Source of the DNA: Escherichia coli
GTDB lineage: Bacteria; Pseudomonadota; Gammaproteobacteria; Enterobacterales; Enterobacteriaceae
Assembly: GCF_003334335.1 (NCBI RefSeq)
Contig: NZ_QOWQ01000121.1
Reading direction: 5' to 3' (one strand)
DNA length: 1,131 nucleotides
Shown piece after piece: positions 668 to 1,131 of this stretch (position 1 is its first letter; each line of letters begins with the position of its first letter). Below the pieces are notes generated by a model. That model was not told the DNA's origin and did no database searches. It saw only the letters and a list, made by a program, of their open reading frames with translations. The translations under genes and the position numbers were made by a program.

Positions 668-1131
668 ATGACACAGACTGAATCAGCGATTCTGGCGCAT
701 GCCCGGCGGTGTGCGCCTGCGGAGTCGTGCGGCTTCGTGATAAGCACGCCGGAGGGGGAGCGGTATATCCCTTGTGTGAATATTTCTGCAGAGCCGGAGG
801 CGTATTTTCGTATCGCACCGGAAGACTGGCTGCGGGCAGAGATGCAGGGGGAGATTGTGGCACTGGTCCACAGTCATCCCGGTGGGCTGCCCTGGCTGAG
901 CGAGGCTGACCGGCGGCTGCAGATAAAAAGCGCACTGCCCTGGTGGCTGGTCTGCCGGGGTGACATTCACAAATTCCGCTGTGTGCCACATCTGACAGGA
1001 CGGCGCTTTGAGCACGGGGTGACGGACTGTTACACGCTGTTCCGGGATGCTTACCATCTGGCGGGAATTGATATGCCGGATTTTCATCGCGAGGATGACT
1101 GGTGGCGCAACGGCCAGAACCTGTACCTGGA
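668..1131 (+). CDS. K: Tail assembly protein, lambda gpK family (JAMM/MPN domain followed by start of NlpC/P60 domain; 3'-partial)
   Basis: ATG at 668-670 opens a frame that runs to the window end without a stop (154 codons plus 2 nt). It is absent from the ORF track only because it has no stop inside the window. The translation MTQTESAILAHARRCAPAESCGFVISTPEGERYIPCVNISAEPEAYFRIAPEDWLRAEMQGEIVALVHSHPGGLPWLSEADRR...GVTDCYTLFRDAYHLAGIDMPDFHREDDWWRNGQNLYL matches my recollection of lambda gpK with scattered substitutions. It contains an H-x-H-x7-S-x2-D JAMM motif and a D-C-Y papain-like Cys context. Position immediately downstream of L matches lambda gene order. Confidence 0.9.
   Translation, partial: MTQTESAILAHARRCAPAESCGFVISTPEGERYIPCVNISAEPEAYFRIAPEDWLRAEMQGEIVALVHSHPGGLPWLSEADRRLQIKSALPWWLVCRGDIHKFRCVPHLTGRRFEHGVTDCYTLFRDAYHLAGIDMPDFHREDDWWRNGQNLYL
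869..910 (+). other. JAMM/MPN+ metalloprotease zinc-binding motif (H-x-H-x7-S-x2-D) within K
   Basis: Codons at 869-871 (His), 875-877 (His), 899-901 (Ser) and 908-910 (Asp) give V-H-S-H-P-G-G-L-P-W-L-S-E-A-D, an exact fit to the JAMM consensus HxHx(7)Sx(2)D. Candidate upstream acidic residues are Glu at 722-724 and Glu at 752-754 or 758-760. Confidence 0.8.
1028..1030 (+). other. Candidate catalytic cysteine of an NlpC/P60 (papain-like) domain in K
   Basis: TGT at 1028-1030 encodes Cys in the context H-G-V-T-D-C-Y-T-L-F-R-D-A-Y, which resembles the Cys-containing N-terminal helix motif of NlpC/P60 peptidases. The partner His and polar residue would lie beyond the right edge of the window. 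Confidence 0.55.

What the first reader, a model, noticed from the sequence alone, without database searches (positions are those of the whole stretch)
869..910. Intact JAMM metalloprotease motif in a tail assembly protein
The K homologue keeps every residue of the JAMM zinc-binding signature (His 869-871, His 875-877, Ser 899-901, Asp 908-910) and has candidate upstream Glu residues (722-724, 752-760). Such full conservation in a diverged lambdoid copy suggests the metal site is under selection, not a vestige. What the presumed isopeptidase or protease activity cleaves during tail-tip assembly is, to my knowledge, not well defined for this family.
Basis: partly seen in the sequence, partly recalled or inferred. 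Interest (0 to 1): 0.45.

Follow-up and report, generated by a model that had tools for sequence, protein, structure and literature searches.

The report
Known JAMM protease site in phage K
The window carries the start of a lambda-type tail assembly gene K whose zinc-protease (JAMM) motif is intact and clearly under selection, but the motif, its predicted target (the ubiquitin-like head of the neighbouring tail protein I) and recent experimental support for that target are already published, so the finding is correct and ordinary.

Summary
Window 668-1131 encodes the first 154 residues of a lambda gpK homologue. It is 93% identical to re-sequenced lambda K. It carries E19 (722-724), H68-S69-H70 (869-877), S78 (899-901) and D81 (908-910), which is a full E-xn-H-S-H-x7-S-x2-D JAMM motif.

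Evidence that the site is real and functional:
- Pfam Prok-JAB matches at E=2.2e-16.
- An AlphaFold model (pLDDT 95.4) best matches the Pyrococcus JAMM1 desampylase homologue.
- In 106 representatives with a median 40% identity, E19, H68, H70 and D81 are among the most conserved positions. E29 and E31 are not conserved.
- Close relatives show synonymous changes inside motif codons, and pN/pS is about 0.15.

It is not new. The JAMM motif of lambda K was listed in 2003. In 2006 K's JAB domain was predicted to cut the ubiquitin-like N-terminal domain off gpI after its terminal glycine. A 2025 conference report says this cleavage has been shown. F-pyocin data show removal of the same N-terminal region in the gpI homologue.

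My own checks agree. The I homologues next to distant K genes keep a beta-grasp domain ending in GG.

Verdict: already known, low interest.

The parts
1..657 (+). 3' 218 codons plus stop of gene L (minor tail / tail-tip hub protein L), immediately upstream of K
   Evidence: NCBIfam TIGR01600 phage_tail_L at E=1.7e-108, above its cutoff. Annotated as tail tip assembly protein L in the 97.8% identical phage PhiR5_1.
668..1131 (+). 5' 154 codons of gene K (tail tip assembly protein K), cut by the end of the window
   Evidence: Translation. 93% identical to re-sequenced lambda K. phrog_30 tail family at E=1.7e-99.
674..982 (+). JAMM/MPN+ (Prok-JAB) domain, residues 3-105
   Evidence: Pfam PF14464 at E=2.2e-16. 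Profile hits to the solved JAMM proteins 2kks, 2kcq, 5lda/5ld9 and AfJAMM. AF2 model with pLDDT 95.4. Foldseek top hit is PfJAMM1, TM 0.66-0.68 normalised to the target.
722..724 (+). E19, the catalytic Glu that positions the zinc-bound water
   Evidence: Glu in 100 of 102 aligned representatives, and invariant in the curated 97-sequence alignment. It aligns to the conserved Glu of 2kks, 2kcq and PfJAMM1. Its role is taken from AfJAMM E22 (PMC300881).
869..877 (+). H68-S69-H70: two zinc ligands and the bracing Ser
   Evidence: Each is present in 105 of 106 representatives. The one exception is a frameshifted ORF. Only synonymous codon variants (AGT/AGC, CAT/CAC) occur in 52 close relatives.
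899..910 (+). S78-E79-A80-D81: the oxyanion-hole Ser and the third zinc ligand Asp
   Evidence: D81 is present in 106 of 106. S78 is Ser in 95, Thr in 10 and Gly in 1. In the model D81 lies at the start of helix 79-88, as D80 lies on alpha2 of AfJAMM.
779..781 (+). N38, an invariant residue of the K-type JAMM domain outside the canonical motif
   Evidence: Asn in all 103 of the 106 representatives that have a residue at this position, and invariant in A3 and A5. Its role was not tested.
1001..1131 (+). Start of the second, NlpC/P60 (C40) cysteine-peptidase domain, including invariant R112, D120 and the catalytic-type C121 (1028-1030)
   Evidence: C121 is present in 102 of 106. R112 and D120 are invariant in A3. 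Full-length relatives carry PF00877 and TIGR02219-like regions and match MepS/Spr structures.

Best explanation
The window holds the end of tail gene L and the first 154 codons of gene K of a lambda-like prophage or phage. The N-terminal 105 residues of K form an active JAMM/MPN+ zinc peptidase. H68, H70 and D81 hold the zinc, E19 activates the bound water, and S78 stabilises the tetrahedral intermediate. Its substrate is the product of the next gene, I. That protein starts with a MoaD/SAMP-like ubiquitin-fold domain that ends in a conserved Gly-Gly. Next come a glycine-rich hydrophobic stretch and the C-terminal plug domain that stays in the tail tip. K cuts after the Gly-Gly and removes the ubiquitin-like domain once I has joined J and L in the tip complex. 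This acts as an assembly checkpoint. K itself does not stay in the virion.

Shown here: the motif, the fold, the family-wide invariance, purifying selection, and the conserved K-I gene pair with a beta-grasp domain ending in GG.

Taken from the literature: the prediction of the cleavage (2006), the report that gpK cleaves gpI (conference summary, 2025), and the absence of K and of the N-terminal part of I from particles.

Inferred: that the JAMM domain, rather than the NlpC/P60 domain, does the cutting, and that the cut falls exactly after GG.
For: Motif and frame.

Family and fold:
- Pfam Prok-JAB at E=2.2e-16.
- Profile matches to solved JAMM proteins with aligned E/HSH/S/D.
- AF2 model with pLDDT 95.4. 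E19 lies just before strand 21-27, H68 and H70 at the end of strand 62-69, and D81 in helix 79-88. This is the same placement as AfJAMM E22, H67/H69 and D80.
- Foldseek best hits are PfJAMM1 alone and in complex with the ubiquitin-like SAMP2.

Conservation and selection:
- E19, H68, H70 and D81 are among the top conserved positions in 106 representatives with a median 40% identity.
- pN/pS is 0.15 among 52 close relatives. Window versus lambda gives pS 0.41 and pN 0.038, with synonymous changes inside motif codons.
- The only intact-looking E19 variant also lacks C121 and sits in a non-phage context.

Substrate:
- K is followed by an overlapping I-like gene in lambda, PhiR5_1 and three distant metagenomic loci. 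Each has YG-L-RFG...P-x3-G-x3-G(G) followed by a hydrophobic Gly-rich stretch.
- The N-terminal domain of I models as a beta-grasp whose best matches are SAMP1, MoaD and CysO.

Literature:
- PMC1779556 predicts that the JAB domain releases the Ubl of I.
- PMC12908700 reports that gpK cleaves the Ubl of gpI only after gpI joins the tip complex.
- PMC10721106 finds no gpK in virions and resolves only gpI 135-223.
[quoted passage not shown] The gpK homologue is essential and absent from particles.
Against: - The window itself contains neither gene I nor the rest of K, so the substrate argument rests on close relatives.
- The experimental claim is available to me only as a conference summary. It says gpK has a deubiquitinating domain and cleaves gpI, but does not say which of the two peptidase domains is responsible.
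- The F-pyocin preprint leaves the protease for PA0640 formally unidentified. It also saw loss of the N-terminal region in E. coli without the K homologue.
- Model coordinates are not returned by the tools, so ligand-to-ligand distances were not measured.
- One representative in a normal L-K-I-J context has Gly at the S78 position, so that Ser may not be strictly required.
- AfJAMM itself showed no activity in vitro, so motif integrity alone does not prove catalysis.
Confidence: 0.8

Rival explanations
1. The JAMM domain only recognises and holds the ubiquitin-like domain of I. The actual cut is made by the C-terminal NlpC/P60 cysteine peptidase domain of K.
For: The NlpC/P60 Cys (C121), D120 and R112 are as conserved as the JAMM residues. 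Iyer et al. note that the papain-like NlpC/P60 domain might also process the Ubl protein, and that some phages pair I with a K that has only NlpC/P60. The conference summary does not name the domain responsible.
Against: A pure binding role would not require all three metal ligands plus the catalytic Glu to stay invariant at about 40% identity. Non-catalytic MPN domains typically lose these residues (established knowledge of MPN- proteins such as Rpn8 and CSN6). The closest structural relatives are active Ubl-cleaving JAMM enzymes.
Confidence: 0.1
2. The JAMM domain is mainly a counter-defence. It strips ubiquitin-like tags that host Bil-type systems attach to the central tail fibre J.
For: Hör et al. 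speculate exactly this for DUB domains in siphophage tail assembly proteins (bioRxiv 10.1101/2023.09.04.556158). K acts on the J-containing tip complex.
Against: The K JAMM domain is nearly universal in lambda-like and T1-like tail modules and is always paired with a phage-encoded Ubl-GG protein. A K homologue is required for tip assembly in F-pyocin, where no Bil system is involved. GpK is required for lambda tail assembly in ordinary laboratory hosts. No data show cleavage of Bil conjugates.
Confidence: 0.07
3. The motif is a vestige. K is a non-catalytic assembly chaperone and the JAMM residues are kept only for fold stability.
For: AfJAMM with an intact motif had no detectable activity in vitro. 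K is described only as an assembly factor of unknown location in recent structural papers.
Against: The invariant positions are exactly the catalytic ones, while the mean per-position conservation across the 154 aligned residues is 0.48. The residues decay in an orphan copy outside a tail module. A 2025 report describes cleavage of gpI by gpK.
Confidence: 0.03

Closest known systems
Bacteriophage lambda gpK (tail tip assembly protein K; TAPK of Iyer et al. 2006; JAB + NlpC/P60)
   Same: 143 of 154 residues are identical to re-sequenced lambda K. The gene follows L in the same way. The E19/H68/S69/H70/S78/D81 and C121 residues are identical.
   Different: There are eleven conservative substitutions outside the motif and 41% synonymous divergence. 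The GenBank/RefSeq lambda entry (199 aa) lacks the first 48 residues because one base is missing from the reference sequence.
Archaeal JAMM1 desampylases (Pyrococcus furiosus JAMM1, PDB 5ld9/5lda; Haloferax HvJAMM1, NCBIfam NF041370)
   Same: Best structural match, with a full JAMM motif. The partner is a MoaD/SAMP-type beta-grasp protein ending in Gly-Gly. The I N-terminal domain best matches SAMP1 and MoaD.
   Different: About 20% identity. The NCBIfam score is 31.5 against a cutoff of 130, so this is not a member of that equivalog. K is fused to an NlpC/P60 domain. Its presumed substrate is a linear N-terminal Ubl fusion, not an isopeptide conjugate.
Eukaryotic JAMM isopeptidases Rpn11, CSN5 and AMSH
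   Same: Same fold and the same E-xn-H-S/T-H-x7-S-x2-D site.
   Different: 15-20% identity. The eukaryotic enzymes are larger, have insertions, and work inside multi-subunit complexes on isopeptide bonds.
F-type pyocin PA0639 / PA0640 pair of Pseudomonas aeruginosa
   Same: A gpK homologue that is essential for tip assembly and absent from particles. A gpI homologue whose N-terminal region is removed at a proteolytic checkpoint.
   Different: This is a tailocin, not a phage. The protease was not assigned in that preprint, and I did not examine its sequence here.
Bacterial defence-system JAB deubiquitinases (BilC of Bil, Cap3 of CBASS)
   Same: Prokaryotic JAB-domain peptidases that cut after the C-terminal Gly of a ubiquitin-like protein or tag (the Cap3 role is from my own knowledge).
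   Different: They are host-encoded and paired with E1/E2 enzymes. K has no E1/E2 partner and sits in a tail morphogenesis operon. No sequence comparison was run here.

Membership tests
JAMM/MPN+ metallopeptidase (Pfam Prok-JAB PF14464) | Significant match to the family profile | tested here: met
   PF14464 at E=2.2e-16, residues 3-105, covering model positions 3-113 of 114.
JAMM/MPN+ metallopeptidase (Pfam Prok-JAB PF14464) | Complete E-xn-H-S/T-H-x7-S-x2-D motif | tested here: met
   E19, H68, S69, H70, S78 and D81 with the exact spacing. They align to the motif residues of 2kks, 2kcq and PfJAMM1.
JAMM/MPN+ metallopeptidase (Pfam Prok-JAB PF14464) | MPN fold with the His pair at a strand end and the Asp on the following helix | tested here: met
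   AF2 pLDDT 95.4, with secondary-structure placement as in AfJAMM. Foldseek probability 1.00 to PfJAMM1, CSN5 and Rpn11. Inter-residue distances were not measurable because coordinates are not returned.
JAMM/MPN+ metallopeptidase (Pfam Prok-JAB PF14464) | Zinc binding and peptidase or isopeptidase activity | not testable with these tools
   Only indirect evidence: a conference report that lambda gpK cleaves gpI (PMC12908700).
Lambda gpK-type tail tip assembly protein (JAB + NlpC/P60) | Close sequence relationship to lambda K | tested here: met
   93% identity over 154 aa, BLASTP E=2e-113.
Lambda gpK-type tail tip assembly protein (JAB + NlpC/P60) | Position in the tail operon between L and I/J | tested here: met
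   L ends 10 nt upstream, inside the window. I and J follow in PhiR5_1 (97.8% nt identity) and in lambda. The window ends before I.
Lambda gpK-type tail tip assembly protein (JAB + NlpC/P60) | C-terminal NlpC/P60 domain with a catalytic Cys | tested here: inconclusive
   Only its first roughly 40 residues lie in the window. C121 and D120 are present and invariant in the family, but Pfam did not call the truncated domain. Full-length relatives carry it.
Desampylase equivalog (NCBIfam NF041370) | Score above the curated cutoff | tested here: not met
   31.5 bits against a cutoff of 130. It is homologous but not a member.

The most novel reading that the evidence does not exclude
Besides maturing gpI, the K JAMM domain could remove host ubiquitin-like tags (Bil-type) from the central tail fibre J while the tip complex is assembled. 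That would make it a built-in anti-defence deconjugase. The equally conserved NlpC/P60 domain might then have a separate target that is still unknown. Hör et al. have already floated the anti-Bil idea as speculation, and my evidence neither supports nor excludes it.
Probability: 0.1. Interest if true: 0.6.

Novelty: already known. Interest (0 to 1): 0.1.

Why it matters
It confirms that this prophage copy of K is a functional-looking member of a well-described family. The family is of general interest because it is a ubiquitin-like domain and deubiquitinase pair used as an assembly checkpoint in phage tails and tailocins. This window adds nothing beyond one more conserved copy. The only practical by-product is a reminder that the lambda reference record under-annotates K: its 199-aa product lacks the catalytic Glu. 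That can mislead motif-based or structure-based analyses which start from that entry.

Tried and rejected
1. I tried to measure whether the motif residues converge on one site in the AF2 model. The tool returns no coordinates and none are written to /data. I could compare only secondary-structure placement and fold matches.

2. The search for related loci with the 97-sequence alignment failed because no stretch was conserved enough. With a 13-sequence alignment it returned only relatives 92-99% identical. I used those for the pN/pS analysis instead of a survey of diverse contexts. Diverse contexts came from five encoding-contig look-ups.

3. I considered that lambda itself might be a functional phage whose K lacks the catalytic Glu, because RefSeq K is 199 aa. 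I rejected this. Two independent lambda re-sequencings and about 30 near-identical phages carry one extra G that restores a 247-aa K.

4. I examined the apparent motif exceptions among the representatives. Four are frameshifted, chimeric or truncated ORFs and one is an orphan copy.

5. I searched for a full paper or preprint of the Davidson-lab gpK/gpI work and found only the conference summary.

6. Rfam gave no hits, and the promoter and terminator scans gave nothing above background.

7. The long ORFs on the minus strand (for example 10-747) have no support, given the strong plus-strand homology. I did not pursue them.

Full report
**What is in the window**

The plus strand carries two genes. 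Positions 1-657 are the last 218 codons and the stop of a phage minor tail protein L. This matches NCBIfam TIGR01600 at E=1.7e-108.

Ten bases downstream, an ATG at 668 opens a frame that runs to the end of the window and gives 154 residues. The whole window is 97.8% identical to Escherichia phage PhiR5_1, where the two genes are annotated as tail tip assembly proteins L and K. It is 95-96% identical to many Stx-converting phages.

An L-K segment of this kind is present in 4005 of 5426 complete E. coli genomes. The median is 2 copies and the maximum is 18. The best match is 98.8%. Rfam, promoter and terminator scans found nothing notable.

**Checking the observation**

- H68 is at 869-871.
- H70 is at 875-877.
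- S78 is at 899-901.
- D81 is at 908-910.
- Seven residues lie between H70 and S78.
- E19 is at 722-724.

The pattern H-x-H-x7-S-x2-D occurs once in six frames and in 189 of 200,000 shuffles of the fragment. More to the point, residues 3-105 match Pfam Prok-JAB at E=2.2e-16.

A profile built from K homologues hits the solved JAMM proteins 2kks, 2kcq, PfJAMM1 (5lda/5ld9) and AfJAMM, with the E, HSH, S and D residues aligned.

**Fold**

I built an AlphaFold2 model of the 154 residues from a 97-sequence alignment. It has a mean pLDDT of 95.4.

Its best Foldseek matches in the PDB are P. furiosus JAMM1, alone and bound to the ubiquitin-like SAMP2 (TM 0.66-0.68 on the target, rmsd 2.7-2.8 A). CSN5, Rpn11 and AMSH follow.

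In the model:
- E19 sits just before strand 21-27.
- H68 and H70 sit at the end of strand 62-69.
- D81 sits in helix 79-88.

In AfJAMM, E22 is on beta2, H67 and H69 are on beta4, and D80 is on alpha2. S77 flanks the oxyanion hole (PMC300881). So the placement is the same. The metal ligands are the two His and the Asp. The Glu and Ser are catalytic but are not ligands.

I could not measure distances because coordinates are not provided.

**Is the site under selection?**

An exhaustive search of 50%-identity cluster representatives gave 2087 hits, 879 of them below 1e-10. I aligned 106 representatives of 200-330 residues, with a median 40% identity to the window. The counts are:

| Position | Result in 106 representatives |
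|---|---|
| D81 | 106 of 106 |
| H68, S69, H70 | 105 of 106 each |
| E19 | 100 of 102 aligned |
| S78 | Ser in 95, Thr in 10 |

The mean per-position conservation over the 154 window residues is 0.48. In a curated 97-sequence alignment the invariant columns are E19, N38, H68, H70, D81, R112, D120 and C121.

The apparent exceptions fall into three groups:
- Four are frameshifted, chimeric or truncated ORFs.
- One (P0025) has E19K together with C121G. It lies among transporter and dehydrogenase genes with no L or I neighbour, so it is an orphan remnant.
- One (P0103) has Gly at the Ser position in a normal L-K-I-J context.

Among 52 distinct close relatives from viral contigs, the motif codons show only synonymous variants (S69 AGT/AGC, H70 CAT/CAC, S78 AGC/AGT). 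Pooled pN/pS is 0.15. Window versus lambda gives pS 0.41 and pN 0.038.

It rests on the family, not on this copy, which is 93% identical in protein to lambda K.

**What it does**

K is followed by an overlapping gene I in lambda, in PhiR5_1 and in three distant metagenomic loci.

All five I proteins share the same layout:
- an N-terminal domain with invariant Y-G-x-L-x-R-F-G near its start;
- P-x3-G-x3-G at its end, as ...AG(A/S)xxGG in most;
- then a glycine-rich hydrophobic stretch;
- then a conserved C-terminal domain.

I modelled the N-terminal domain from only five sequences. The core has pLDDT 81-86 and the mean is 76.7. It is a beta-grasp whose best PDB matches are SAMP1, MoaD and CysO. 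These are the partners of the JAMM enzymes that K most resembles.

This reproduces the 2006 analysis of Iyer, Burroughs and Aravind. They predicted that the JAB domain of K releases the Ub-like domain of I by cutting at its C-terminal glycine (PMC1779556).

Later experimental work agrees:
- gpK is not found in lambda virions, and only gpI residues 135-223 are resolved in the tail tip (PMC10721106).
[quoted passage not shown] The gpK homologue is essential and is not in the particle (bioRxiv 10.64898/2026.02.24.707460).

I found no full paper of that work in the library.

**Rival readings**

- The NlpC/P60 domain begins in the window and its Cys (C121) is just as conserved. It could be the cutter, with JAMM acting as the binding module. 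The invariance of the catalytic Glu and all metal ligands argues against a purely binding role.
- Hör et al. speculated that such DUB domains counter the Bil defence system, which tags the central tail fibre. This cannot be excluded as a second function. It does not explain the universal pairing with a phage-encoded Ubl, or the requirement for K in ordinary hosts and in a tailocin.
- A vestigial site is contradicted by the conservation pattern.

**Comparison with known families and novelty**

This is a member of the lambda gpK family and of the Prok-JAB/JAMM superfamily. It is not a member of the desampylase equivalog: the score is 31.5 against a cutoff of 130.

The JAMM motif of lambda K was already shown in 2003, where its function was listed as unknown (PMC300881). 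The substrate was predicted in 2006 and reportedly demonstrated by 2025. The finding is correct and already known, and I score it low.

**By-product**

The lambda reference sequence (J02459/NC_001416) lacks one G after GGAGGC, at about 14266/14267. The comparison is with two independent lambda re-sequencings, about 30 near-identical phages and this window.

As a result its K is annotated as 199 aa. That product starts at the equivalent of window residue 49 and lacks E19. Re-sequenced lambda encodes a 247-aa K with the full motif.

Noticed in passing
window about 803 (the G after GGAGGC); L001 (NC_001416) locus 2267/2268, record about 14266/14267: The lambda reference genome lacks one G here. 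The comparison is with two independent lambda re-sequencings (PV340536; LC730321, which is 48,503 bp), about 30 near-identical phages and the window. This splits K, so the GenBank/RefSeq K is 199 aa and lacks the first 48 residues, including the catalytic Glu. Re-sequenced lambda K is 247 aa. This is probably an error or strain mutation in the 1982 sequence.
   Followed up: yes
window 475-477, 502-504, 571-573, 580-582, 592-594: There is a cluster of five Cys in the C-terminal part of L (C-x8-C ... C-x2-C-x3-C), conserved with lambda gpL. This region of gpL carries an iron-sulfur cluster of unknown function on the outside of the tail tip, according to PMC10721106.
   Followed up: partly
window 1001-1030 (R112, D120, C121): The start of the second peptidase domain (NlpC/P60) has invariant R112 and D120. 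C121 is present in 102 of 106 representatives. These are as conserved as the JAMM site. The substrate of this domain is not identified in anything I read.
   Followed up: partly
window 779-781 (N38): An Asn in the JAMM domain, outside the canonical motif, is present in every representative that has a residue here (103 of 106). It is possibly a substrate-tail contact, but its role is unknown.
   Followed up: no
L088 4280-5017 (protein P0025): An orphan K-like gene lies among transporter, alcohol dehydrogenase and HxlR genes, with no L or I neighbours. It has both active sites mutated (E19K and C121G). It looks like a decaying or co-opted remnant.
   Followed up: partly
L002 7309-7989; L003 2275-2847: Gene I is annotated from an internal start (190-193 aa) in PhiR5_1 and in the re-sequenced lambda record. 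The Pfam Lambda_tail_I match then begins at model position 26. The open frame upstream contains the invariant YGDLQRFG start of the ubiquitin-like domain. The real I start therefore lies about 100 nt inside the 3' end of K, as in the 223-aa RefSeq annotation.
   Followed up: partly
proteins P0020, P0005, P0009; phrog_28576 and phrog_35166: Natural K-I fusion ORFs exist. One example is P0020, where K residues 1-84 join directly to the end of the I ubiquitin-like domain (...HIVPRVAGAKSGG). Iyer et al. also noted fusions. I did not determine whether these are functional or deletion products.
   Followed up: no
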